64,000 nucleotides of DNA, from positions 35,457 to 99,456 of the forward strand of contig JAFSDI010000002.1 in assembly GCA_017436325.1 (NCBI GenBank), given 5' to 3'. The stretch's first letter is position 1. Every line of letters begins with the position of its first letter. Source of the stretch: Alphaproteobacteria bacterium. Lineage in GTDB: Bacteria; Pseudomonadota; Alphaproteobacteria; Rs-D84. Under the pieces are notes generated by a model. It was not told the origin of the DNA. It saw only the letters and a program-made list of their open reading frames with translations, and did no database searches. The translations under genes were made by a program, and so were the position numbers. This document shows, in pieces, positions 4,911 to 28,704 of this stretch.

Positions 4911-5864
4911 TTAAAAACCAGCTTTTGTTAACCAACGAACATCATTGTCGTAAAATTGTCTAATATCATTCAGATTGTACTTCAGCATTGCAAGTCTATC
5001 CCAACCGAAACCAAATGCGAATCCTTGGTATTCATCTGGGTTAATACCGCAATTAACCAAGACGTTTGGATGAACCATACCTGCGCCCATAATTTCTAAC
5101 CATCGTCCATTTTTCCATTTTAAATCAACCTCTATTGATGGGTCTGTAAAAGGGAAATAAGACGGACGTATACGCAATTCAACATCATCTATTTCAAAGA
5201 AACGCTTTAAGAATGCGCGAATATCACCGATTAAATCAGACATCGTTATATTTTTATTGATATAAAGTCCTTCGATTTGACCGAACATAGGACTGTGTGT
5301 TGCGTCCATTTCTTTGCGATATGTTGAACCGACACCAAACATTTTAATTGGGACACCATCTGCCTCCATTGCGCGTATTTGGATTGCGGATGTTTGTGTA
5401 CGCAGAACATTACCGTCTTGCAGAAAGAAACTATCTTGCATATCGCGTGCAGGATGATAAGACGGTGTATTCAAAGCAGTAAAATTATGCCAATCATCTT
5501 CGACTTCTGGTCCTGTATACATTGTGTATCCAAAAGATTCCAGAATCTTAGAAATTTCAATCAGACTTTGTGTCAAAGGATGTAAAGTGCCACGATTTTC
5601 AGGCAAAGGATTTAGTGAAACATCTAATTTTTGTTTTTCCAAAGAAGCCATTAAAACAGCATTTTCTATTTCCGTTTGTTTTGTTTTAAATAATTCGCGC
5701 AGTGTTGTATTTTCTGTATTTAATGCAGCACGTGCATCATTATCCAGATTTTTCATTTCTTTTAAACGTGCAGTCATAGTACCGTTTTTTCCAAAGGTTT
5801 CGGTATACAGTGCCTGAAGTTCTTCCAGTGTTTGTGTATTTTTAATTTTATCTTGCATAATCAT
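4911..5864 (-). CDS. pheS: Phenylalanine--tRNA ligase alpha subunit.
   Basis: 317 aa with class II aaRS motifs (FRPSYFPFTDPS, GFAFGFGWDRLAM). Confidence 0.92.
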   Translation of the reverse strand: MIMQDKIKNTQTLEELQALYTETFGKNGTMTARLKEMKNLDNDARAALNTENTTLRELFKTKQTEIENAVLMASLEKQKLDVSLNPLPENRGTLHPLTQSLIEISKILESFGYTMYTGPEVEDDWHNFTALNTPSYHPARDMQDSFFLQDGNVLRTQTSAIQIRAMEADGVPIKMFGVGSTYRKEMDATHSPMFGQIEGLYINKNITMSDLIGDIRAFLKRFFEIDDVELRIRPSYFPFTDPSIEVDLKWKNGRWLEIMGAGMVHPNVLVNCGINPDEYQGFAFGFGWDRLAMLKYNLNDIRQFYDNDVRWLTKAGF

Positions 5865-14804: not shown

Positions 14805-17321
14805 TTAATCATTAACCCGCGCAAGGTCATCATATATTTTATATTTTTGGTCATTTGTTTCGTGATATTCGTATGACGCGCCACCTGCAGAATATATATT
14901 AAATAATTCTGTTACCTTATCGCGTGCGGCGCGTATCATATCGTTGGTTGTATTTGCATCGTATTCAATTAATCGAACGTCATTATTTTTCAGTTGCAAG
15001 AATTGCATAATTGGGAATTCAGATTTTTGTGTTGTACGAATTTTAAATCCGCCAGATTGCAACATTAATGCCTCTAATGGCAATTGTGGCATATTTCCAT
15101 CCATTAATTGTTTTTTTGATGGTGCAGTTCCTGTTTTTATATCCAGAACCCCGCCATCCCATATTCTGTCAGCGCGTGCACGAACATTACGTCCTGCGAT
15201 TTTTATATGTCCTGCGATTTCTGCGAAATGATTTGTTTTATTGGCAAAAACATCGACTAATACAGGTGCGATTTCAACGAATCTTTTATGCCAAAAGTGA
15301 TAAACAATACTATCTGCCCCCAGAATTTCGCGGGCCTTGGTATCCATTTGAGACACCAGATTTATTGCGTTAAAATCAGTTGTGTTTTCAATAACAGAAT
15401 GTACCAGATTTCCGAAATGTCGTGCATCAGGTAATGTCCAATAATCATCCATAACACGCAGTTTTAAAATATGTCGAACATAAAATGCATATGGATTGTG
15501 TATTAACATTTCTAATTCTGTTACATATACATCAGACCAATCTGGTGGTGGTAATGGTGCAGAATAGTCTAATCTTTGTTCGGGGACATTATCTTGATTA
15601 GTTATTGTTTGCAATAAATCTGTATTAATATTAAATTCAGCCCGTCGTGCGACAACACGTGAAATGAAACGTGATTCAGTGGTTTGCACCCCCCCCGCGA
15701 CAGCAGTTCGTATCCAATAAACTTGTGTACCACAAGACAGGTTTATAAAATCCAGTGCCTGTAAAGATACTTTTCTATCTGGTGACGGCAGTCCAATAGA
15801 TTGTGCGATTGATTTTGGTATCCAGTTATTCTCGTACCCGCGTGCAGGGAACATACCATCATTTAATCCGGTCATAATAACAATATCTGCCGTTTGCATA
15901 CGTGATTCTATTGTCCCCAGAACAACAACACTTGCATTATCGTTTATTTGTGGGCGCACAGATACCGCAGACAGACAGTCTGCAACAAATGCACGTGTAT
16001 CTGATAATGTTAAATTCATTCCGATATTTTGTAATATATCAGATAATTCTTTAATTGCGCACCATACTTGTGTACTGTCTGCATTATCTATTTGTACGGG
16101 TGGTGTCAAAGAATCTGAATACTCATCGATGATTTGTGCAATGGTATCAAACACATTATGATTAAATTGTGTATATATTTTATCGAATTTATTAGAATTA
16201 TTTTCAATCCAGTTATCTAGTATATTAAGAATTGCACGTCCTGCATCTGTCATTGTTCCAGGTGTACCAGATGAAAAATCTGCATCAATATCATTTGCGG
16301 ATAATTCCTGTGCGATACGTTGGTTTCCTGCGGCATCAGGTGTTATAACTAATACTGATTTATTATCTTTTATTGCCTGTTTTGCAATTTGTGCAACGAT
16401 TTTTGCTTCGACAGATTCACGTGGCGCAACAACAAGATTGCAATTCGTCAAATCAGTATTTATATCATTTTGTTTATCGCAATCATTTCCAAAAGCATAG
16501 TTCATAAAATCGATAACAGATTCGCCAACATCAATTGGTGTTATTTCATCAGGCGAAACACCGATGCGCCCCAGTAATTTATATTCTGCATTATATGGGT
16601 TGGTATCCAGCATAAAATCTTGAATTCGTCCACAGATTTTTCCGCTTAGCAATATTCGTCCGTGTTCCCGTTTTGCAATTTCTATCATCAAGTCAGCAGT
16701 TGCAGGTACACTGCCTGTTGAACCACATACAACAACTAGTTTATATTTATCCAGAACATTAATCCATGCGCGAATATCGTTATTTCTGACCTGTGTTGAT
16801 GTTTGTCGTCCATTGGCATAAACATCCATAAAATTTGAAAGTATATTTAAAATTTTTGCTTTATTTTGAAAATGTGTCGCATATTTTTCATCAACTAATT
16901 CAATCCAGTTTATATCTTTTGGGTTAATACCTTCGTTTTCCAGATAGTCTTGCATACGCACTAAATCGTGTGCGATGGGCAATGCAGTTGTCAGGTTACC
17001 AACATTTGCATCAGCGCTAAGCAATTTTGCCAGAATTGCGACACGTTCTGTTTTTGATATGATATTATTGTGGTCTGTTATTTCATTGTCTGTATCATCG
17101 TCATCTAAACCTTCGCCCAATGCGACAAGTTTTGGCAAGATTGCTGTACCACCGGATTTTTCTGCAATCATTTTTTCAACACAACGAACAGCGCGCCGAC
17201 TGGGCAAGAATATCAGCATATCTGCAATATCACTATTACATTCTGATATAATATACCACAATGCATCTAACATACGTGCAGGATTTGTTGCATAAAAGAT
17301 ATTGTTATTATTTAATCCCAA
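14805..17321 (-). CDS. addB: AddB-like double-strand-break repair nuclease (alphaproteobacterial AddB type). No addA is adjacent.
   Basis: The C-terminal PD-(D/E)XK-like motifs RADRI...LDIKTG are present, with an AddB-like N-terminus. It is short at 838 aa. Confidence 0.55.
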   Translation of the reverse strand: MGLNNNNIFYATNPARMLDALWYIISECNSDIADMLIFLPSRRAVRCVEKMIAEKSGGTAILPKLVALGEGLDDDDTDNEITDHNNIISKTERVAILAKLLSADANVGNLTTALPIAHDLVRMQDYLENEGINPKDINWIELVDEKYATHFQNKAKILNILSNFMDVYANGRQTSTQVRNNDIRAWINVLDKYKLVVVCGSTGSVPATADLMIEIAKREHGRILLSGKICGRIQDFMLDTNPYNAEYKLLGRIGVSPDEITPIDVGESVIDFMNYAFGNDCDKQNDINTDLTNCNLVVAPRESVEAKIVAQIAKQAIKDNKSVLVITPDAAGNQRIAQELSANDIDADFSSGTPGTMTDAGRAILNILDNWIENNSNKFDKIYTQFNHNVFDTIAQIIDEYSDSLTPPVQIDNADSTQVWCAIKELSDILQNIGMNLTLSDTRAFVADCLSAVSVRPQINDNASVVVLGTIESRMQTADIVIMTGLNDGMFPARGYENNWIPKSIAQSIGLPSPDRKVSLQALDFINLSCGTQVYWIRTAVAGGVQTTESRFISRVVARRAEFNINTDLLQTITNQDNVPEQRLDYSAPLPPPDWSDVYVTELEMLIHNPYAFYVRHILKLRVMDDYWTLPDARHFGNLVHSVIENTTDFNAINLVSQMDTKAREILGADSIVYHFWHKRFVEIAPVLVDVFANKTNHFAEIAGHIKIAGRNVRARADRIWDGGVLDIKTGTAPSKKQLMDGNMPQLPLEALMLQSGGFKIRTTQKSEFPIMQFLQLKNNDVRLIEYDANTTNDMIRAARDKVTELFNIYSAGGASYEYHETNDQKYKIYDDLARVND

Positions 17322-20316: not shown

Positions 20317-20898
20317 TTAAAATTCATAAATAAATAATTTATGAGGGTATTTTTTTCTGTTGTAAATAACATAGCCTGATTTTGTGTCTATAACCCGTAC
20401 CGGTTTCAGTCCTTGGATTTCAAAGTTCAATGATATCAAGACATTAATTTTGTTTTTATAATTTGTTAACAATGGTGTTAATTTTGGCCCCAGATAGGCC
20501 AGTGCGATATCGAACTTTTCATCGGTGTTATCAAGAAATTTAAATGCATCAGTCTGAATTGTTTTTGATTTTTTTGACAGTGAAAAAAAGTCTAAAAATT
20601 TAGATATGCCTGCCGAAAAAGGCATATTTTCCAATGCGATAACGTTTGTGTCTGTGTGTTTTGCGACATATCGCGCCAGACCGCCGAAACCGGAACCGAT
20701 TTCTAATACATTTTTAGCATTTTTATAATAAGTATTAATTTGTTCAACAACTGCCTGGCGTGATTTTTTACGACTTGGCACAAATGGCGGTTGTTTACGA
20801 ACGAATGCGCAGTAAATATATTCTAAAGTTTTCATAAAAAAATATGCATAAAATAAAAAGAATAAAATCAGGATTGTATACAAAATAAATTCAAACAT
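20317..20898 (-). CDS. Membrane-anchored class I SAM-dependent methyltransferase of unknown target.
   Basis: An N-terminal transmembrane helix is followed by SAM motif I, VLEIGSGFGGLA. Confidence 0.55.
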   Translation of the reverse strand: MFEFILYTILILFFLFYAYFFMKTLEYIYCAFVRKQPPFVPSRKKSRQAVVEQINTYYKNAKNVLEIGSGFGGLARYVAKHTDTNVIALENMPFSAGISKFLDFFSLSKKSKTIQTDAFKFLDNTDEKFDIALAYLGPKLTPLLTNYKNKINVLISLNFEIQGLKPVRVIDTKSGYVIYNRKKYPHKLFIYEF

Positions 20899-20993
20899 CT
20901 GTAAACCGTTTTTTTTAATTATATATTCAGAATATCAGTATATAGAAAACAAGACAATAAAAAACCATACAATAAATGTATGGTTGAAATTTT

Positions 20994-21482
20994 TTATCGT
21001 GCGACATATTTATTCAAATGTGAAAACACAGCCATATGACATTCTGACCAAACAAGTGTGCTGTCTAATGTTGGTTTTACTTTCTTTGATTCAAGGTTTA
21101 TAACAGCATTCTTGGTTGTTTCAGAAATATTTGCAGGTCCATAGTATGTTATATTATATAAAGCCTGCAGATAGTTATGTTTTTTGTCTGTAAAGCAAAT
21201 ATTATTATCGTCAAAAGATATTAAATATTTACCATTATTAACCCTAATAGAATAACTATTGTCAGATTTTTTATGTGAAATTTCATACAAGCGTCTTTTG
21301 TCTGGTGTTTGTGCATAGGTAATCGTTTCGTTTGTACCGCTTGTATATATATCAAAATCAGTCTGCAGATTATTTTGTTTTAATACTTTGACTAATTGTT
21401 GCAGCAACAAAATAGACAGGTTGTATTTTTCGCGTGCCAGTCTTTTTTCTATCTGAAGTTTAACTCTTTCTGGTACTATCAT
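20994..21482 (-). CDS. Hypothetical protein of 162 aa. It has its own terminator, and its promoter region carries the 47-bp operator-like repeat.
   Basis: The ORF is supported by a downstream hairpin with a T-tract (AACCATACA..TGTATGGTT). No motif was recognised. Confidence 0.4.
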   Translation of the reverse strand: MIVPERVKLQIEKRLAREKYNLSILLLQQLVKVLKQNNLQTDFDIYTSGTNETITYAQTPDKRRLYEISHKKSDNSYSIRVNNGKYLISFDDNNICFTDKKHNYLQALYNITYYGPANISETTKNAVINLESKKVKPTLDSTLVWSECHMAVFSHLNKYVAR

Positions 21483-21560
21483 GCTAAAATCCTTTTGTTA
21501 TCGACAACAAATAGTACACTAATAAAAATAATTGTCAACCTAGTATAGTTTTTTTGGTTA

Positions 21561-21608
21561 CCTATGCAAATTGTGCAGAAAACAAACATCAGATTTTCTG
21601 ATTTAATA
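21561..21608. promoter_or_regulatory. Operator-like repeat, copy 1 (CCTATGCAAATTGTGCAGAAAACAAACATCAGATTTTCTGATTTAATA), containing the palindrome ATCAGA-TTT-TCTGAT. It lies upstream of the 162-aa gene.
   Basis: It is 46 of 47 nt identical to 22509-22556. Confidence 0.55.
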
Positions 21609-21646
21609 TTGCAGACAAAACTATTTAAAAAGAAATCGTTGTAATT

Positions 21647-22249
21647 TTACTTTAGCAAAATATAAATTAAATCGGTTAAATCATCAACGTTACCATTTAT
21701 TGTATCGTTCATATATCTTTCATACACAGAATGGTTATCAATCGGATTTAAATTTAATTTATATCCTTTTTGTAATGCAAGTAACCTTATAAATTCACGC
21801 TGTGTTCGTCCGTTACCTTCGCGAAAAGGATGTAAAAAATTAATACTATCCAAAATAATTGCTAATTTTTCTGCAAGCTTTTTTTTATTTAGGTTTTGAA
21901 TGTTATTTAATTCGGATAGTAAACCGTCAATATACGCAAACGCTTCATTAAAAGAATGCATAGGTAAAAATTGTCGTCCACCTTTTGCGATTTCAACTTT
22001 TCGCACTTCGTCAGCCCAATCATATACATCTTGGAATAAAAATTTATGTATTTTTAATAAATCATAACCATATTTAATTTTAATTGGGTTCTTTAATAAC
22101 TGTTCGGACCGATTTGCAACACATAGTGATTCAAAAGCAACCAATTCTTTATAATCTTTGATATTTTGTTTATTTAATAAAACACCGGCATCTTTATCGG
22201 TATAAAGATATTCATGGTCTATATATTTATAATCACCATTAAATAGCAT
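21647..22249 (-). CDS. Fic/Doc-family toxin (AMPylator-type Fic domain).
   Basis: The Fic motif HPFREGNGRTQR is present. Confidence 0.85.
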   Translation of the reverse strand: MLFNGDYKYIDHEYLYTDKDAGVLLNKQNIKDYKELVAFESLCVANRSEQLLKNPIKIKYGYDLLKIHKFLFQDVYDWADEVRKVEIAKGGRQFLPMHSFNEAFAYIDGLLSELNNIQNLNKKKLAEKLAIILDSINFLHPFREGNGRTQREFIRLLALQKGYKLNLNPIDNHSVYERYMNDTINGNVDDLTDLIYILLK

Positions 22250-22457
22250 TATGGATACGTTTTGCTAAATCATTCTGATTGATTTTACCTAATCTGTAAT
22301 CTCTGTATACTTCTATTAATGCCTTGTTTGGTTTAAAGCCTTCATAAATTTGCGAAGCAAGAACAGATGCAACAGAATCTAAAGTGTCTAAATCTGGAAA
22401 TTTAACACCGTATATAGTTAATTCTCGTCTGTTAAAATCAATATTATTTAATGTCAT
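22239..22457 (-). CDS. VbhA/FicA-like antitoxin carrying the inhibitory S-x-x-x-E-G motif.
   Basis: 72 aa, overlapping the Fic start by 11 nt. SQIYEG matches the [S/T]xxxE[G/N] motif that inhibits Fic. Confidence 0.65.
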   Translation of the reverse strand: MTLNNIDFNRRELTIYGVKFPDLDTLDSVASVLASQIYEGFKPNKALIEVYRDYRLGKINQNDLAKRIHNAI

Positions 22458-22508
22458 GCTGTTATTTTAAATTAAAAAAGAGCAATTTTCAAGTTGTAGT
22501 AAAATGTA

Positions 22509-22556
22509 CCTACGCAAATTGTGCAGAAAACAAACATCAGATTTTCTGATTTAATA
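22509..22556. promoter_or_regulatory. Operator-like repeat, copy 2, in the antitoxin-Fic promoter region.
   Basis: It is near-identical to 21561-21608 and contains the same palindrome. Confidence 0.55.
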
Positions 22557-22661
22557 CAACGGTTAAAGAGTTTAAAGATAAATGTCTAATTTCACCTGTG
22601 GGTGAAAATTGAATATTTGTTGAATTTATGATATTATTTTATAGAAAACAAAGGTTCTAAG

Positions 22662-23573
22662 ATGAGAACATCTTTACAAGATAAAGTTAAAACATTTATT
22701 GCATTAAAACTTCAGAGGAAACGAAATTTTTTAAAGAAATCTAATCAGTACAGATGGAATTCTCCTGTTTATTTGTTTACTAATGAAAATATTCATGATT
22801 ATTTAATACAACTTGATAATTTAAAGAATAAAAAGATTTTATGCGTTGCTGGCGGTGGTGACCATGTATTTGAATCTATTCTGGCGGGTTCGAAATATAT
22901 TGATTGTTTCGATATAAATTATTTGCAAAAACATATAATTGAATTGAAATCAAAAATGATAATTGCCTTACCGTATAATGAATTTATGGCTTTTTTCTTT
23001 GATAAAAAAGAATTTATGAATAAAAAGATTATCGCTCCTATTTTTCACACTTTTTCATCAGGCTTGCAACAATTTCTAAACATGTATTACAAAAGCAATA
23101 ACTTAGATTATTTTGAATACCGTGGCCCAACAATACCAAGATACGATATAAAAAAAATTTCATATATAAGAAATGTACGACAATATAATAAATTGAAAAA
23201 ATTGTTGCCAACCACACAAATCAATTTTATTAATTCTAATTGCAAAAACATAATAAATAAAACAAACCAAACATACGATGTAGTGCTGTTATCAAATATA
23301 TTTGACACTCGTTTTACGCGAAATAATATTAAATATAAACTATTTGATTTTTATAATAAATTTGTTCAACCGATATTTATACAATGTTTGAATCCTAATG
23401 GCAAAATTTGTTTTGCCTATATTTACGATGACAAACTGTATAATTCTTGTCTGAAACAGTCTATTAAAAATCTAATTTTACAAAAAAACACAAAAATATC
23501 TTCCATCATAATAGACAGTATAAATAAGGGGAACGATTCAAACATAGTTCTTTATTGTAAAAAGAAGCTTTAG
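22662..23573 (+). CDS. Hypothetical protein with a class I methyltransferase-like fold (possibly DUF3419/BtaA-like).
   Basis: ILCVAGGGDHVFE resembles a glycine-rich SAM loop and YDVVLLSNIFD a motif-II-like region. The sequence is very AT-rich. The assignment is weak. Confidence 0.35.
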   Translation: MRTSLQDKVKTFIALKLQRKRNFLKKSNQYRWNSPVYLFTNENIHDYLIQLDNLKNKKILCVAGGGDHVFESILAGSKYIDCFDINYLQKHIIELKSKMIIALPYNEFMAFFFDKKEFMNKKIIAPIFHTFSSGLQQFLNMYYKSNNLDYFEYRGPTIPRYDIKKISYIRNVRQYNKLKKLLPTTQINFINSNCKNIINKTNQTYDVVLLSNIFDTRFTRNNIKYKLFDFYNKFVQPIFIQCLNPNGKICFAYIYDDKLYNSCLKQSIKNLILQKNTKISSIIIDSINKGNDSNIVLYCKKKL

Positions 23574-23587
23574 AATCGGCAATCTCT

Positions 23588-23716
23588 GTTCGAAATTTGG
23601 TAAAAAATTGATGTTTTTTGAATATAACATTTTCGAACCACCAAAACGATATAAAAACCAAAGAAAAACCGCGCTTTGAAAGTGCGGTGTATCTCTTGGT
23701 GGGAATCAGCTTGCAT
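23588..23716. repeat. Island repeat A, an att-like scar. It contains the hairpin ACCGCGC..GTGCGGT and a degraded tRNA-Tyr 3'-end-like segment.
   Basis: It is about 80% identical to 24324-24452. Confidence 0.55.
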
Positions 23717-23808
23717 TAATCGAGCAGAAAATAGGTAAAAATATTGAAACTAACAATAAACTATGATAAAATACAACTAAGAATTGAAATAGACCAAGGA
23801 GCAATAAC

Positions 23809-24228
23809 ATGAGTTCTATAAAAGACAATAATTCCAAAGCGAACTATATTCGTTTGGCTACCCTTTTGTTAAACTATGAAAATGTATATGTAGATGTAAT
23901 ATGGACTAATAAAAAAGGTTCTTATGTTCCGCCTATCTATGCTTCTCATTTAATGTTGGATGAGAAAGCTGATTATACTGTTTACGAAGATGCTGGTAAA
24001 AAGAAAAAAATTTTTACATTTAATTTTATTCCTAGCAAAAAATCTACAATTACGTTGAATAATGGTGAGTCTTTGCAATTAAATATGGCTAAAAGTGCGA
24101 TGTTTGCAAGAAAACTTCTTAAAATACGTGAGTCCGATCTTGGGCGCGTGGAAGATGATTTTAAGAGAGAAATGGCAAGCAATATGCGATTGGCTTTGCA
24201 GTCGGTAAAAGAGGTATTACTTACGTGA
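23809..24228 (+). CDS. Hypothetical protein of 139 aa, carried as cargo between repeats A and B.
   Basis: It is an ORF with an AGGAG-like ribosome-binding site (caaggagc). No motif was recognised. Confidence 0.4.
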   Translation: MSSIKDNNSKANYIRLATLLLNYENVYVDVIWTNKKGSYVPPIYASHLMLDEKADYTVYEDAGKKKKIFTFNFIPSKKSTITLNNGESLQLNMAKSAMFARKLLKIRESDLGRVEDDFKREMASNMRLALQSVKEVLLT

Positions 24229-24323
24229 TAAAGATTGTAAAGAATCATAAAATTGCCACGATAGTGGCGATTTTTTATCTCTACCCGTAAGTTTAAGCAA
24301 TAAAACTATTAGAGTTTATAGTC

Positions 24324-24452
24324 GTTCGAAGATTGATAAAAATTAGTGTTTTTTTGGATATGCCTTCTTCGAACCACCCAAATAATATAAAAACCAAACA
24401 AAAACCGCACCTTTATGGTGCGGTGTATCTTTTGGTGGGGGTGGCTGATTCC
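24324..24452. repeat. Island repeat B, an att-like scar. It ends in TGGTGGGGGTGGCTGATTCCC, which resembles the tRNA-Tyr 3' end.
   Basis: It is a tandem copy of repeat A and lies proximal to tRNA-Tyr. Confidence 0.55.
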
Positions 24453-24617
24453 CTCGGACAAATGTCCTGCGGGGCATTCGTTAGCACTCGAACTGCGCAC
24501 TGCTTGTTCTCGCTTACTCATTGTCGAACCTGCAATCTTTCGATTGCGTGTTTCAAATCCATAAAACACAACACACCAAAAATAAATGGCCGCCTTTCAG
24601 CGACCATTTATTTTTAG

Positions 24618-24704
24618 TGGTGGGAGTGGCTGGATTCGAACCAGCTCAGGCTTAAGCCAACAGATTTACAGTCTGCCCCGGCTCTCCAACTCCGGCGCAC
24701 GCCC
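24618..24704 (-). tRNA. tRNA-Tyr (GUA), type II with a long variable arm, CCA-encoded.
   Basis: Manual folding gives a D-arm CCGG/CCGG, the anticodon loop CUGUAAA and a T-arm GCUGG-UUCGAAU-CCAGC. There is one acceptor mismatch (4:69) and C at position 8, so the gene is slightly atypical. Confidence 0.7.
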
Positions 24705-24824: not shown

Positions 24825-24899
24825 TGGTGCGAGCAGCGGGAATCGAACCCGCATTTCAAGCTTGGAAGGCTTGCATACTAGCCTTTGTACTATGCTCGC
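24825..24899 (-). tRNA. tRNA-Gly (UCC).
   Basis: The acceptor is GCGAGCA/UGCUCGC, the anticodon loop CUUCCAA and the T-arm GCGGG-UUCGAUU-CCCGC, with CCA encoded. Confidence 0.85.
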
Positions 24900-25039
24900 A
24901 ACAAAATCAAAGCCTTATGATTATATACAAAAGAAAATCAAAATCAAGAATAAAGTAAAAAAAATATGTACTTTATTTGATAAAAAAACAATGTTATAAA
25001 ATTAGCATAAAAAGACCGGCGTTTTTTGCCGGTGATTTT

Positions 25040-26134
<1,095 letters not shown>

Positions 26135-26211
26135 TCACAGTTTGTAAAAAATCAAGGAAACACAACAAAAAATATTTGATTTATTTTTTTTTATGGTAAT
26201 ATAAATCCGCT

Positions 26212-26625
26212 ATGAAAAGAGATACAATAAAAAAACACGAAGATTTTGCGACTGCGATGAATGATCCATCTGCACGTTCTGCCTATTTTCTGATACGGGC
26301 AAAGAAGGCTAAGTATGAAAATGATCCACGTTATGGTATATCGGTGACAAAGCGCAGTTTTAAACACGCAGTAGACAGGAATCGTGCGAAAAGAATGTTG
26401 CGTGATTGGATTGCATTCAACGAAGATTTGTTGCGTCCAGAATGGGATTATATTTTCATTGTTCGCAAGGATATTTTTTGTGCAGATTGCTATACTGGGC
26501 GTGGCGCAATGAGAAAAGCATTGCGATATATGCAGAAATTACCGCTTGAACCATCATCTGAATGTGGTGTTGTGCAATCACAAAACAAAGAATCTTTACC
26601 AGAAATTGAAGAAACACAAGAATAA
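26212..26625 (+). CDS. rnpA: Ribonuclease P protein component.
   Basis: The basic RnpA core ...[10 protein letters not shown]... is present and the gene lies upstream of yidD. No rpmH precedes it. Confidence 0.7.
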
Positions 26626-26650
26626 TTTTTTTGTTAATATTGCCTGTGCG

Positions 26651-26845
26651 ATGGTACGTATGTATCAGTTTATTATATCACCAATAATTGGTGGTCGCGC
26701 TGTGTGTCGTTTTGTCCCAACGTGCAGCGAATATACCCGTCTTGCATTAGAAAAATATGGCATATTGCGTGGTATATGGCTTGGAATAAAAAGAATCAGT
26801 CGTTGCAGACCTGGTGGTGGTTATGGTTACGACCCTGTTCCTTGA
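26651..26845 (+). CDS. yidD: Membrane protein insertion efficiency factor YidD.
   Basis: [28 protein letters not shown]. Confidence 0.85.
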
Positions 26846-26909
26846 CAACGCGCTATAATATGGTACAATTTTAAACTATGCTAGGCAATAAATATAAAAA
26901 GGATAACAA

Positions 26910-27347
26910 ATGTCTTTTCGTGCAACCGTTGAATCTATGTCAAAAATCATGGACGATATGGGTATAACAGAACTTGATTTAGAGCGACAATTTTTATTCG
27001 GTGTATATCGCAAACATATCCATTTATCGAAACAAAAAACAGTTGCGGTATCGGGTGCGACCGCCACAGATATCAAGACGGTCAAAACAGACGCAACAAC
27101 AAATCCTGTTACAGGATATACATTAAAATCACCAATGGTCGGTGTTGTTTATTTGGCGCCGGAACCTGGGGCAGAAACATTTGTAAAGGTTGGTACCGCT
27201 GTCAAGGTTGGTGATACTGTTGCATTGGTCGAAGCGATGAAAACCTTTAATCCGATTAAATCTGATAAAGACGGCATTGTCAAAGAAGTATTGGTTACTG
27301 ATGGGGCTGCTGTTGAATTTGACCAACCTTTAATTGTTATTGAATAA
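26910..27347 (+). CDS. accB: Biotin carboxyl carrier protein.
   Basis: The biotinyl domain is present (EAMKTFNPI). Confidence 0.85.
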   Translation: MSFRATVESMSKIMDDMGITELDLERQFLFGVYRKHIHLSKQKTVAVSGATATDIKTVKTDATTNPVTGYTLKSPMVGVVYLAPEPGAETFVKVGTAVKVGDTVALVEAMKTFNPIKSDKDGIVKEVLVTDGAAVEFDQPLIVIE

Positions 27348-27357
27348 TATTAGAAAT

Positions 27358-28704
27358 ATGTCACAAATAAAAAAAGTTTTAATTGCAAATCGCGGTGAAA
27401 TTGCGCTGCGTATAATTCGTGCGTGTCGCGATATGGGTATACGAACTGTTGCGGTGTATTCGACTGCAGACAAGGATGCGATGCATGTACAACTTGCGGA
27501 TGAGTCTGTATGTATTGGGCCTGCGCCGGCGCGTGATTCTTATTTAAATGAATCTGCGATTATAACTGCGGCATTATTGACCAATTCTGATGCGATTCAC
27601 CCAGGGTATGGATTTTTGTCAGAACGTGCAGACTTTGCGAACAAGGTTGAACAGCATGGTATGATATGGGTTGGGCCTGCACCAGAAATGATTACAAAAA
27701 TGGGTGACAAGGTTAACGCAAAAAAAACCGCAATAGAGTGTGGATTACCAGTTGTCCCAGGGTCTGATGGCGCAATAGAAACGTTGGAATCTGCGCTTGA
27801 TTGGGCTGAAAGGATTGGATATCCTGTTATGCTAAAGGCTGCGGCTGGTGGCGGTGGACGCGGTATGCGCGCAGTGATGAACAAAGACAATATGGCAGAG
27901 GCTTTTAATCTGACCAAGAATGAGGCAAAATCTGCATTTGGTAATGATACCTTATATATGGAAAAATTATTGACACATCCACGTCATATTGAATTTCAGG
28001 TATTGGGTGATAAGCATGGCAACGTTGTTATTTTTGGTGAACGTGATTGTTCATTGCAACGCCGTAATCAAAAAGTTATGGAAGAATGCCCTGCGGCAAT
28101 TCTGACACAAAAACAACGCGATGATATGATAGAGGTTTGTAAGTCTGCGGCTAAGAAAATGGGTTATACGAATGCTGGGACTTTTGAATTTATGTTCCAA
28201 GACGGCAAGTTTTATTTTTTAGAGATGAACACCCGTCTGCAGGTTGAACATCCTGTGACAGAAATGGTTTATGGTATTGATTTGGTTCGCGAACAAATTC
28301 GTATTGCTGCGGGCGAAAAGCTGGGGTATACCCAGTCAAATGTTATTCCAAACGGTCACGCAATAGAATTTCGTATTAATGCAGAAGATTCGGAAACATT
28401 TATGCCAAATCCTGGGACAATCAGCTTGTATGCGCCATCTGGTGGGCTGGGGGTACGTGTAGATAGTGCTGTTTACACAGGTTACACTATACCGCCAACG
28501 TATGATTCTATGATTGCAAAGTTAATTGTTCATGCACAAAATAGACCTGCTTGTATTATGCGTGCAGCGCGTGCATTGGATGAATTTGTTATCGAAGGTG
28601 TCAAGACAACAATCCCACTGCAGCAAAAATTGTTAAAAAATAAAGATGTTAAGCAGTTGAACTTTGATAACAAGTGGCTAGAAGGTTTTTTAAAGAAAGA
28701 ATAA
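27358..28704 (+). CDS. accC: Biotin carboxylase.
   Basis: ATP-grasp fold. KKVLIANRGEIALRIIRA. Confidence 0.93.
   Translation: MSQIKKVLIANRGEIALRIIRACRDMGIRTVAVYSTADKDAMHVQLADESVCIGPAPARDSYLNESAIITAALLTNSDAIHPGYGFLSERADFANKVEQHGMIWVGPAPEMITKMGDKVNAKKTAIECGLPVVPGSDGAIETLESALDWAERIGYPVMLKAAAGGGGRGMRAVMNKDNMAEAFNLTKNEAKSAFGNDTLYMEKLLTHPRHIEFQVLGDKHGNVVIFGERDCSLQRRNQKVMEECPAAILTQKQRDDMIEVCKSAAKKMGYTNAGTFEFMFQDGKFYFLEMNTRLQVEHPVTEMVYGIDLVREQIRIAAGEKLGYTQSNVIPNGHAIEFRINAEDSETFMPNPGTISLYAPSGGLGVRVDSAVYTGYTIPPTYDSMIAKLIVHAQNRPACIMRAARALDEFVIEGVKTTIPLQQKLLKNKDVKQLNFDNKWLEGFLKKE

What the first reader, a model, noticed from the sequence alone, without database searches (positions are those of the whole stretch)
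20317..24704. Accessory island at tRNA-Tyr bounded by tandem att-like scars; cargo is a Fic toxin-antitoxin, two methyltransferase-like genes and unknowns, with no integrase left
To the left of tRNA-Tyr there are two homologous repeats of about 125 bp (23588-23716 and 24324-24452). Each contains a hairpin and a segment resembling the tRNA-Tyr 3' end. Repeat B has TGGTGGGGGTGGCTGATTCCC against the tRNA's TGGTGGGAGTGGCTGGATTC, and the segment is more degraded in repeat A. Successive integrations at one tRNA with partial decay would produce exactly this pattern. The enclosed genes are strongly AT-rich and Lys/Asn/Ile-rich and have no housekeeping role: a membrane-anchored SAM methyltransferase, a 162-aa unknown, Fic with its antitoxin, a methyltransferase-like 303-aa protein and a 139-aa unknown. 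No integrase or transposase remains.
Basis: partly seen in the sequence, partly recalled or inferred. Interest (0 to 1): 0.6.

Follow-up and report, generated by a model that had tools for sequence, protein, structure and literature searches.

The report
Gene-cassette array beside tRNA-Tyr
The 4.3 kb between lpoA and tRNA-Tyr is this strain's copy of a variable array of tiny one-gene cassettes found across gut Candidatus Enterousia, each cassette ending in a copy of the tRNA's last bases, and no recombinase gene lies in or next to the array.

Summary
Repeats A and B are 80% identical, each has a terminator hairpin, B carries 14 of 15 bases of the tRNA-Tyr 3' end, GC drops to 27-30%, a Fic/VbhA pair is present, and no integrase is present.

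Comparison with 40 related Candidatus Enterousia genomes and 26 metagenome loci changes the reading. The lpoA-to-tRNA-Tyr gap ranges from 33 bp (empty site) to 5.4 kb, and its contents almost never match. The repeats are not decayed scars. They are a conserved 115-nt module (R) that marks one end of each small cassette.

On the + strand a cassette reads: TGGTGGGA core, a Y or X module, usually one gene, R, then the next core. I found 34 complete cassettes of 0.5-1.6 kb. A 99%-identical strain has an extra GNAT cassette placed exactly at the tRNA core. The window's o303 cassette recurs in another species at a different array position.

None of about 70 loci has an integrase in the array. Successive insertion at the tRNA is therefore supported, but loss of an integrase is not. 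The cassettes are probably moved in trans. Conserved serine recombinases are candidates, by inference only. X is a new structured element family that ends in tRNA-like 3' tails.

The parts
20317..20898 (-). o193: membrane-anchored protein that is weakly SAM-methyltransferase-like. It is the oldest, lpoA-proximal cargo.
   Evidence: Pfam hits are all below cut-off. Homologues at 53-70% aa identity sit in the same position in L004, L020, L023, L025, L030, L031 and L048. In L097 a homologue lies inside a Y..R cassette.
20994..21482 (-). o162: cargo of unknown function.
   Evidence: No Pfam or PHROG hit. No homologue in the intervals of the 40 relatives.
21559..21655 (+). Y1: a copy of the Y module that lacks the core. 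Its first 50 nt (21559-21608) form the left copy of the 98%-identical direct repeat flanking fic/vbhA.
   Evidence: nhmmer E 7e-15. Direct repeat D2. Alignment to Y copies of relatives.
21647..22249 (-). Fic toxin with the HPFREGNGRTQR active-site motif.
   Evidence: PF02661, E 1.3e-15. The motif was read in the translation.
22239..22457 (-). VbhA-type antitoxin. It overlaps fic by 11 nt and carries the inhibitory motif S-Q-I-Y-E-G.
   Evidence: PF18495, E 2e-4, 21.7 bits against a cut-off of 25.9. Translation.
22505..22614 (+). Y2: a Y module that is frameshifted and lacks the core. Positions 22507-22556 are the right copy of the 50-nt repeat. Y2 is the left end of the o303 cassette.
   Evidence: nhmmer E 3e-17. 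In L195 the same cassette has a canonical Y.
22662..23573 (+). o303: a DUF3419 (BtaA-like, SAM-dependent-like) protein, cargo of a Y..R cassette.
   Evidence: PF11899, E 3.8e-13. The 1181-nt cassette is 88.6% identical in L195, at a different array position.
23588..23703 (+). R_A: the R module, with two TTCGAA motifs and terminator hairpin 23668-23688. It ends in the core.
23697..23819 (+). Y3: a Y module that starts with the core TGGTGGGA (23697-23704). Its small reading frame is cut short (..AENR*). It is the left end of the o139 cassette.
   Evidence: nhmmer E 1e-14. Junction table. Translations.
23809..24228 (+). o139: cargo of unknown function, followed by terminator hairpin 24249-24274.
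   Evidence: No Pfam or PHROG hit. The identical protein occurs in strains whose array differs downstream.
24324..24439 (+). R_B: the R module, with hairpin 24404-24424.
24433..24570 (.). X: a conserved three-hairpin element. The end farthest from the tRNA (24433-24451) copies the last 19-20 nt of tRNA-Tyr.
   Evidence: 76-98% identical in at least 11 other species, always next to tRNA-Tyr. Stems covary. No Rfam family matches.
24574..24619 (.). term1: a bidirectional terminator hairpin directly after tRNA-Tyr.
   Evidence: (I5). The identical hairpin forms the whole lpoA-tRNA gap in L047.
24618..24704 (-). tRNA-Tyr(GTA), the anchor of the array. Its first 45 nt from the 3' end are identical in 41 of 42 loci.

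Best explanation
The lpoA-to-tRNA-Tyr interval is a lineage-wide array of very small mobile gene cassettes anchored at the 3' end of tRNA-Tyr.

Read on the window's + strand, a cassette has four parts:
1. A core identical to the reverse complement of the tRNA's last bases (TGGTGGGA, up to 20 nt in X).
2. A conserved left module. This is either Y (about 120 nt, carrying a small conserved reading frame) or X (about 140 nt, three hairpins).
3. Usually one cargo gene, in either orientation.
4. The R module (about 115 nt, with two TTCGAA motifs and a terminator hairpin), which abuts the next core.

Cassettes enter or leave by recombination between cores. New ones arrive next to the tRNA, and older ones drift toward lpoA and lose clean ends. 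From the tRNA outward the window holds an X/term1 unit, the o139 cassette, the o303 cassette, a fic/vbhA unit between two Y copies, and then o162 and o193.

Shown: the anatomy, its recurrence, the empty sites, and gain or loss at strain level at the core.

Inferred: that exchange is site-specific and is catalysed in trans by a recombinase encoded elsewhere. The conserved 199-aa serine recombinase of this lineage, or the 519-aa serine recombinase found beside it in some genomes, are the candidates.
For: **Hotspot**
- In 40 relatives the synteny PDDEXK-engB-rsmI-lpoA ... tRNA-Tyr-tRNA-Gly is kept.
- The gap varies from 33 bp to 5.4 kb and holds 46 unrelated protein clusters.

**Locus-specific modules**
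- R, X and Y were found only in this interval, always in one orientation. The search covered the window, the 47 related loci and the 120 loci from the metagenome scan, about 1.5 Mb in all.
- None was found on viral contigs.

**Junction rule**
- The junction reads: any terminator hairpin, then TGGTGGGA, then one of tRNA-Tyr, X, Y, X' or X''.

**Cassettes**
- 34 complete Y..R units of 511-1610 bp were found, nearly all with one ORF of 78-429 aa.
- Cargo includes GNAT, racemase, APH-like kinase, HD, peptidases, lipoproteins and unknowns.

**Mobility**
- L076 and L077 are about 99% identical to the window. L076 has Y-GNAT-R after term1+TGGTGGGA, exactly where L077 and the window have the tRNA.
- The o303 cassette is 88.6% identical in L195. 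There it sits next to X and the tRNA, without the o139 cassette.
- An o193 homologue is a cassette in L097.

**No recombinase in cis**
-.

**Recombinase lead**
- A 199-aa serine recombinase is conserved at 83-95% aa identity in more than 120 clusters.
- In L131 it abuts an array. In L198-200 its gene is followed by a tRNA-like 3' end, then R, then variable cassettes with X-like units. Two strains are identical up to ..CCAACCA and diverge after it.
- A remnant of its C-terminus lies beside an R-type hairpin in L019 and L024.
Against: - No circular cassette and no excision junction was observed.
- No recombinase is shown to act on these sites. The 199-aa recombinase sits in very different contexts and may simply belong to an element integrated at tRNA-Gln. 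It is absent from the window.
- Cargo orientation is mixed (16 + and 18 -), unlike integrons.
- The fic/vbhA unit and the o162/o193 genes lack canonical core/R ends.
- A 144-bp strain deletion joins two TCGAACC motifs. That could equally be microhomology-mediated, so ordinary recombination contributes.
- All data come from metagenome assemblies, which break at these repeats (L003, L070).
Confidence: 0.6

Rival explanations
1. No dedicated recombinase is involved. The array is built and shuffled by ordinary homologous recombination and microhomology-mediated joining after DNA uptake. The perfectly conserved tRNA-Tyr/tRNA-Gly genes act as one anchor, and the shared R, Y, X or lpoA sequences act as the other.
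For: - No recombinase in cis in about 70 loci.
- The tRNA is identical across species.
- R and Y offer 100+ nt of 75-98% identity.
- A 50-nt, 98%-identical repeat flanks fic/vbhA, and the tails beyond it diverge.
- A 144-bp deletion joins 7-8-nt TCGAACC repeats.
- RecA is present in the lineage.
Against: - Homologous exchange can move junctions that already exist but cannot create them. The same 8-nt core is joined to at least six unrelated hairpin types on one side and five different right-hand partners on the other.
- Identity between L198 and L199 switches from 100% to about 75% exactly at the CCA end.
Confidence: 0.25
2. Ordinary integrase-bearing genomic islands or prophages integrated one after another at tRNA-Tyr. 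They then decayed, losing their integrases and most genes and leaving att scars.
For: - Direct repeats of the tRNA 3' end are present.
- Composition is atypical.
- Empty sites exist in relatives.
- Tandem accretion with partial tRNAs is known from tycheposon islands.
Against: - No integrase or fragment of a tyrosine recombinase was found in any of about 70 arrays.
- Units are 0.5-1.6 kb and usually hold one gene, with conserved ends kept at 75-98% identity. That is not what random decay predicts.
- A strain-level insertion is a single 0.8-kb cassette.
- No phage hallmark is present among the cargo.
Confidence: 0.1
3. R and X are functional parts of the tRNA-Gly/tRNA-Tyr transcription unit: terminators, plus a processed RNA like the rtT RNA of the E. 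coli tyrT operon. On this view they were duplicated by unequal crossing-over, and the genes between them arrived by unrelated routes.
For: - In L009, L026, L049, L014 and L044, R directly follows the real tRNA-Tyr.
- X is strongly conserved, structured, and ends like the tRNA.
- From my own knowledge, the E. coli tyrT operon has 178-bp downstream repeats, each ending in 19 nt of tRNA-Tyr. Its rtT RNA is mentioned in the paper read.
Against: - No match to Rfam RtT or to any other family.
- X-like and R units with other tRNA-like tails also occur away from tRNA-Tyr, inside other variable gene arrays.
- Strains with half of X deleted exist.
- This view does not explain Y, or the regular structure of roughly one gene per unit.
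Confidence: 0.05

Closest known systems
Tycheposon-seeded genomic islands of Prochlorococcus (Hackl et al., bioRxiv 10.1101/2020.12.28.424599)
   Same: - Streamlined genomes.
- Islands seeded at tRNA genes.
- Incoming elements push older ones inward.
- Partial tRNA copies are scattered through the island.
- Strain-level gain and loss.
   Different: - Tycheposons carry their own tyrosine recombinase and replication genes, and are several kb long.
- Here the units are 0.5-1.6 kb, usually hold one gene, have conserved R and Y/X ends, and never carry a recombinase.
Integron cassette arrays (IntI, attI, attC). Comparison from my own knowledge.
   Same: - Head-to-tail array of small cassettes, mostly with one gene.
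- Each cassette has a structured recombination-site-like end of 60-240 nt whose structure is better conserved than its sequence (X).
- Cargo is rich in acetyltransferases, toxin-antitoxin pairs, lipoproteins and unknowns.
- New cassettes enter at one fixed end.
   Different: - No IntI next to the array.
- The fixed end is a tRNA 3' terminus, not attI.
- The sites are not attC (no R/L boxes).
- Cargo lies in either orientation and has its own terminators.
CIMEs and site-specific accretion at tRNA or other att sites (reviewed in PMC5704250, listed; not read)
   Same: - Elements flanked by att repeats.
- They lack recombination genes.
- They form tandem arrays and depend on a recombinase supplied in trans.
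   Different: - CIMEs derive from ICEs or IMEs by deletion, and a related ICE supplies the integrase.
- No such parent element was found here, and the units are far smaller and uniform.
rtT repeats of the E. coli tyrT operon (Rfam RF00391; my own knowledge, and the mention)
   Same: About 180-nt units lie downstream of tRNA-Tyr, and each ends in about 19 nt of the tRNA's 3' end. The X/term1 unit of the window has exactly this layout.
   Different: - No sequence or covariance-model similarity.
- X is a family with several different tRNA-like tails, found inside gene-cassette arrays.
- No protein-coding cassettes are associated with rtT.
Class I Fic toxin with VbhA-type antitoxin (VbhT/VbhA, FicT/FicA)
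   Same: The Fic motif HxFx(D/E)GNGRxxR, an upstream overlapping small antitoxin, and the inhibitory (S/T)xxxE(G/N) motif are all present.
   Different: Here the pair is one cargo unit of the array, flanked by two Y copies that share a 50-nt, 98%-identical stretch.

Membership tests
tRNA-integrated genomic island | Lies at the 3' end of a tRNA gene, with an empty site in relatives | tested here: met
   The interval abuts the tRNA-Tyr 3' end. The gap is 33-66 bp in L027, L028, L007 and L047.
tRNA-integrated genomic island | Direct repeat of the tRNA 3' segment at an element boundary | tested here: met
   24433-24451 matches 24618-24637, with 0.03 matches expected by chance. The 8-nt core at 23697 is also present. 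There is no copy at the lpoA end.
tRNA-integrated genomic island | Integrase gene, or a remnant of one, inside the island | tested here: not met
   Pfam on all six window ORFs and on about 50 cargo or flanking ORFs of relatives, plus a motif scan of 1.47 Mb, found none in any array. The exception is one serine recombinase beside the L131 array.
tRNA-integrated genomic island | Atypical base composition | tested here: met
   GC is 0.295 against 0.372 in the flank. The interval is lower than the flank in 39 of 41 loci.
Integron | IntI tyrosine recombinase adjacent to the array | tested here: not met
   No tyrosine-recombinase domain or motif within about 10 kb on either side in the window or relatives.
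Integron | Array of small cassettes, each with a structured recombination site | tested here: inconclusive
   34 cassettes with conserved R and Y/X ends and covarying hairpins. That these ends are recombination sites is inferred from junctions only. They are not attC.
CIME (cis-mobilizable element) | Flanked by att sites and lacks recombination and transfer genes | tested here: met
   Core copies lie on both sides of the o139 and X units, and no mobility genes are present.
CIME (cis-mobilizable element) | A cognate integrative element in the same host supplies the integrase | not testable with these tools
   Only 64 kb of this genome is held. Serine recombinases exist elsewhere in the lineage, but no link is shown.
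Class I Fic/VbhA toxin-antitoxin | Fic domain with the HxFx(D/E)GNGRxxR motif | tested here: met
   PF02661, E 1.3e-15. HPFREGNGRTQR is present in the translation.
Class I Fic/VbhA toxin-antitoxin | Adjacent small antitoxin with the (S/T)xxxE(G/N) motif | tested here: met
   The 72-aa ORF overlaps fic by 11 nt and contains SQIYEG. The Pfam VbhA score of 21.7 bits is below the 25.9 cut-off.
RtT RNA (RF00391) | Match to the covariance model | tested here: not met
   No Rfam match other than tRNAs at E<=1 across 19.5-26.5 kb.
RtT RNA (RF00391) | A unit downstream of tRNA-Tyr that ends in the tRNA's 3' ~19 nt | tested here: met
   The X/term1 unit at 24433-24617 ends (on the minus strand) in GAATCAGCCACCCCCACCA.

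The most novel reading that the evidence does not exclude
Candidatus Enterousia carries an integron-like gene-capture system of a kind not yet described. Arrays of one-gene cassettes are anchored at tRNA genes (tRNA-Tyr here, tRNA-Gln-like sites elsewhere). Their recombination sites mimic a tRNA 3' end, using an X or Y module that ends in ..CCA followed by the R terminator module. The cassettes are moved in trans by a lineage-conserved serine recombinase rather than by a tyrosine integrase.
Probability: 0.25. Interest if true: 0.85.

Novelty: new variant of a known kind. Interest (0 to 1): 0.62.

Why it matters
Candidatus Enterousia has genomes of about 0.75-1.0 Mb, where mobile DNA is expected to be scarce. 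Even so, one intergenic site holds a turnover zone of single-gene cassettes shared across species. This gives a concrete and testable route for gene flow in a reduced-genome gut symbiont. The defined sites are R-core-Y, X and the tRNA-Tyr end, and there are two candidate recombinases. If the sites prove to be recombination substrates, this would be a gene-capture platform that parallels integrons but uses tRNA-end mimicry. Independently of that, X is an unannotated family of structured elements with clear covariation.

Tried and rejected
- **X as tmRNA or a known RNA.** ARAGORN and Rfam find nothing. The 5' and 3' ends of X do not covary as a closing stem.
- **X as protein-coding.** Loop indels would shift the frame.
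- **R, X or Y as genome-wide dispersed repeats or phage-borne sites.** They were found only in these arrays. The viral-contig hits were chance 16-mers.
- **Integrase just beyond tRNA-Gly.** The genes there are lol genes, mltA, recA, mnmE and the like.
- **Y peptide as the tail of a larger parent protein.** The database search (one of three allowed) returned only 33 ORFs of 35-76 aa from the same kind of contig, with no Pfam domain.
- **Y peptide related to the 64-aa ORF upstream of the large serine recombinase.** hhalign probability was 0.2%.
- **R as a decayed recombinase 3' end.** Only the L019 and L024 copies show this. nhmmer finds no R signal inside recombinase genes.
- **dif/Xer-like, attC-like or IS200/IS605-like end structure.** I considered these by eye from memory and saw no convincing match. 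They were not formally tested.
- **A strain lacking the fic/vbhA unit.** None was found among contigs carrying identical o162 or o303.
- **Strand of X.** G·U pairs are 10 against 5 and energies are nearly equal, so the strand is undecided.

Full report
**Observation**

ARAGORN places tRNA-Tyr(GTA) at 24618-24704 and tRNA-Gly(TCC) at 24825-24899, both on the minus strand. The two repeats are real. 23588-23703 and 24324-24439 are 80% identical over 116 nt, and each contains a hairpin that scores as an intrinsic terminator.

Repeat B runs into TGGTGGGGGTGGCTGATTC (24433-24451), against the tRNA's TGGTGGGAGTGGCTGGATTC. The 15-mer with up to two mismatches occurs only at these two places in 64 kb, with 0.03 expected. 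Repeat A shares only TGGTGGGA with the tRNA.

GC falls to 0.27-0.31 across 20-24 kb. Pfam confirms Fic, a sub-threshold VbhA antitoxin and DUF3419, and gives only weak methyltransferase signals for the 193-aa protein. No recombinase is present, and no phage families match beyond Fic-like ones.

**Organism and comparison**

The LpoA-like protein retrieves 47 loci from Candidatus Enterousia and related uncultured gut Alphaproteobacteria at 50-65% identity. The same contig occurs in several assemblies. These organisms have genomes of about 0.75-1.0 Mb.

In 40 relatives the order PDDEXK-engB-rsmI-lpoA ... tRNA-Tyr-tRNA-Gly is kept, but the distance from the lpoA stop to the tRNA-Tyr 3' end ranges from 33 bp to 5.4 kb. 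In L027, L028, L007 and L047 the gap is only a bidirectional terminator. L047's terminator is identical to window 24574-24617.

The 77 ORFs in these gaps fall into 46 clusters. Only the 193-aa protein has homologues in some relatives. The gap has lower GC than its flank in 39 of 41 loci. The interval is therefore accessory, and the site is a hotspot.

**The repeats are conserved modules**

Repeat unit R occurs in many relatives. In L009, L026, L049, L014 and L044 it abuts the real tRNA-Tyr, so its terminal TGGTGGG is the tRNA end itself.

The 140 nt between repeat B and the tRNA terminator (X, 24433-24570) is 76-98% identical in at least 11 species, always beside tRNA-Tyr. In L013, L015 and L022 its distal end is an exact 15-nt copy of the tRNA 3' end.

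The sequence after repeat A (Y, 23697-23819) is 91-97% conserved over its first 34 nt in many relatives.

The window holds two more Y copies, at 21559-21655 and 22505-22614. Their first 50 nt are the 98%-identical direct repeat that flanks fic/vbhA. Their tails resemble different Y variants.

R, X and Y hits lie only inside this interval and always in one orientation. No copy was found on viral contigs.

**Junction rule and cassette anatomy**

Every boundary reads as a terminator hairpin and T-run, then TGGTGGGA, then one of tRNA-Tyr, X, Y or two rarer elements. The hairpin comes in at least six unrelated sequence types.

A metagenome scan with a Y 20-mer gave 26 further genuine arrays. Across all data there are 34 complete Y..R units of 511-1610 bp, nearly all with a single ORF of 78-429 aa in either orientation.

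Cargo includes GNAT acetyltransferases, an Asp/Glu racemase, an APH-like kinase, an HD protein, S8 and S41 peptidases, lipoproteins, PNP_UDP, glycosyltransferases and many unknowns.

**Evidence of movement**

- Contigs L075-L077 are about 99% identical to the window around o139. They lack window 24376-24519, a deletion joining the TCGAACC of R_B to the TCGAACC of X.
- L077 then continues into tRNA-Tyr as the window does. L076 has Y-GNAT-R after term1+TGGTGGGA, exactly at the tRNA core.
- The o303 cassette is 88.6% identical over 1181 nt in L195, a more distant genome. There it has a canonical R|Y left end and lies next to X and the tRNA, without the o139 cassette.
- An o193 homologue forms a Y..R cassette in L097.
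- I found no strain lacking fic/vbhA.
- Short contigs L003 and L070 break at the 50-nt repeat, as expected for assembly graphs.

**X and Y**

X has three hairpins separated by nearly invariant linkers: GGTTCGAnAAnnAGTA, ACGAATGCCCCGCAG and GAGGGAAT, read in the tRNA's direction.

Among 26 distinct copies, the second and third stems differ completely between variants yet always pair. The pairs are almost all Watson-Crick. G·U counts of 10 against 5 do not settle the strand, or whether X acts as RNA or as single-stranded DNA.

X-like copies in other variable regions end in other tRNA-like tails, such as ..GTGCGCCCCAACCA and ..GGCACAACCA. No Rfam family matches.

Y carries a frame reading WWE.AC.NRAENKQEF.DLMQ.VKEFKEKWL... 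It shows more third-position variation and a higher synonymous share than the other frames. However, it has no consistent start codon, and its first 48 nt are conserved at all codon positions. Its only database relatives are 33 ORFs of 35-76 aa from the same kind of contig.

**Recombinase question**

No tyrosine-recombinase domain or motif occurs in the window, in any array, or within about 10 kb of the relatives' arrays.

One array (L131) ends in a truncated tRNA-Tyr copy followed by a 199-aa resolvase-type serine recombinase. That protein is conserved at 83-95% identity in more than 120 clusters, all 199-201 aa apart from one of 208, from alphaproteobacterial MAGs. It is absent from the window.

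Its contexts vary:
- In L198-200 the gene is followed by about 215 nt ending in a tRNA-Gln-like 3' end, then R, then variable genes with X-like and R units. L198 and L199 are identical up to ..CCAACCA and about 75% alike after it.
- In L204-210 it lies beside a 62-64-aa ORF and a 519-aa large serine recombinase, whose 3' end overlaps tRNA-Gln(CTG).
- A remnant of the small recombinase's C-terminus lies next to an R-type hairpin in L019 and L024.

This is an association, not proof of function.

**Interpretation**

The data fit a tRNA-anchored array of integrase-less mini-cassettes that turn over by recombination at a core equal to the tRNA's 3' end. The repeats, though, are functional cassette ends rather than scars, and nothing indicates that an integrase was ever present.

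Ordinary homologous or microhomology recombination between the shared modules clearly contributes. It remains the main rival for the whole process.

The closest described systems are:
- tycheposon islands;
- CIME accretion;
- integron arrays (from my own knowledge);
- the rtT repeats downstream of E. coli tyrT, for X (from my own knowledge).

**Limits**

All sequences come from metagenome assemblies. Only 64 kb of this genome is available. No circular intermediates, transcripts or enzyme activities were examined.

Noticed in passing
window 24433-24570; also L013, L015, L018, L019, L022, L024, L033, L043, L045, L088, L103, L104, L113, L141, L199:8122-8248, L199:8924-9022, L204:2745-2834: X is an unannotated family of ~140-nt elements with three hairpins. 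The stems covary completely, the linkers are invariant, and the tails copy different tRNA 3' ends. No Rfam match.
   Followed up: partly
window 21559-21655, 22505-22614, 23697-23819; about 45 copies in other loci: The Y module carries a conserved small reading frame (WWE.AC.NRAENKQEF.DLMQ.VKEFKEKWL) with a coding-like substitution pattern but no consistent start codon. Only short lineage-specific ORFs match it.
   Followed up: partly
window 21559-21608 and 22507-22556: A 50-nt direct repeat, 98% identical, brackets the fic/vbhA pair exactly. It is the shared 5' part of two Y copies whose tails differ, as expected for a recent recombination joint.
   Followed up: partly
window 24376-24519 versus L075, L076, L077: Strains about 99% identical to the window lack these 144 bp. 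The joint lies in TCGAACC motifs of R_B and X, so half of X is dispensable in those strains.
   Followed up: yes
window 24900-28704: mreB, rnpA, yidD, accB and accC follow tRNA-Gly only in this lineage. In relatives tRNA-Gly is followed by a conserved block that includes lolD and lolC/E-like genes. There is therefore a synteny break at the tRNA pair.
   Followed up: partly
L131:6944-7543; P0001-P0120; L198-L211: A 199-aa resolvase-type serine recombinase is conserved at 83-95% identity across the lineage and always sits in variable regions. In some genomes it lies next to a 519-aa large serine recombinase whose 3' end overlaps tRNA-Gln(CTG).
   Followed up: partly
L036:~5255-5350 and L037:~16318-16450 (interval coordinates): A unit between R and tRNA-Tyr starts with 19 nt of the tRNA 3' end and later contains TCGAACCAGT. 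It looks like a tRNA-Tyr pseudo-copy with an insertion in the T-loop.
   Followed up: no
L020:12883-13090: X is partly duplicated in tandem, and the junction hairpin has a different sequence.
   Followed up: no
L033:8595-8622 and L131:6690-6770: An inverted copy of the tRNA-Tyr 3' end lies on the far side of the terminator hairpin, extending it into a long palindrome.
   Followed up: no
L201:4321-4899: tRNA-Gln(TTG) is followed by an 81-aa GIY-YIG gene and then an R module. R-ended units are therefore not restricted to tRNA-Tyr.
   Followed up: no
window 24618-24704: The tRNA-Tyr acceptor stem has a C4·U69 mismatch, flagged in the Rfam alignment. Its score is modest (39 bits), yet the compared 45 nt from its 3' end are identical in 41 of 42 loci.
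   Followed up: no
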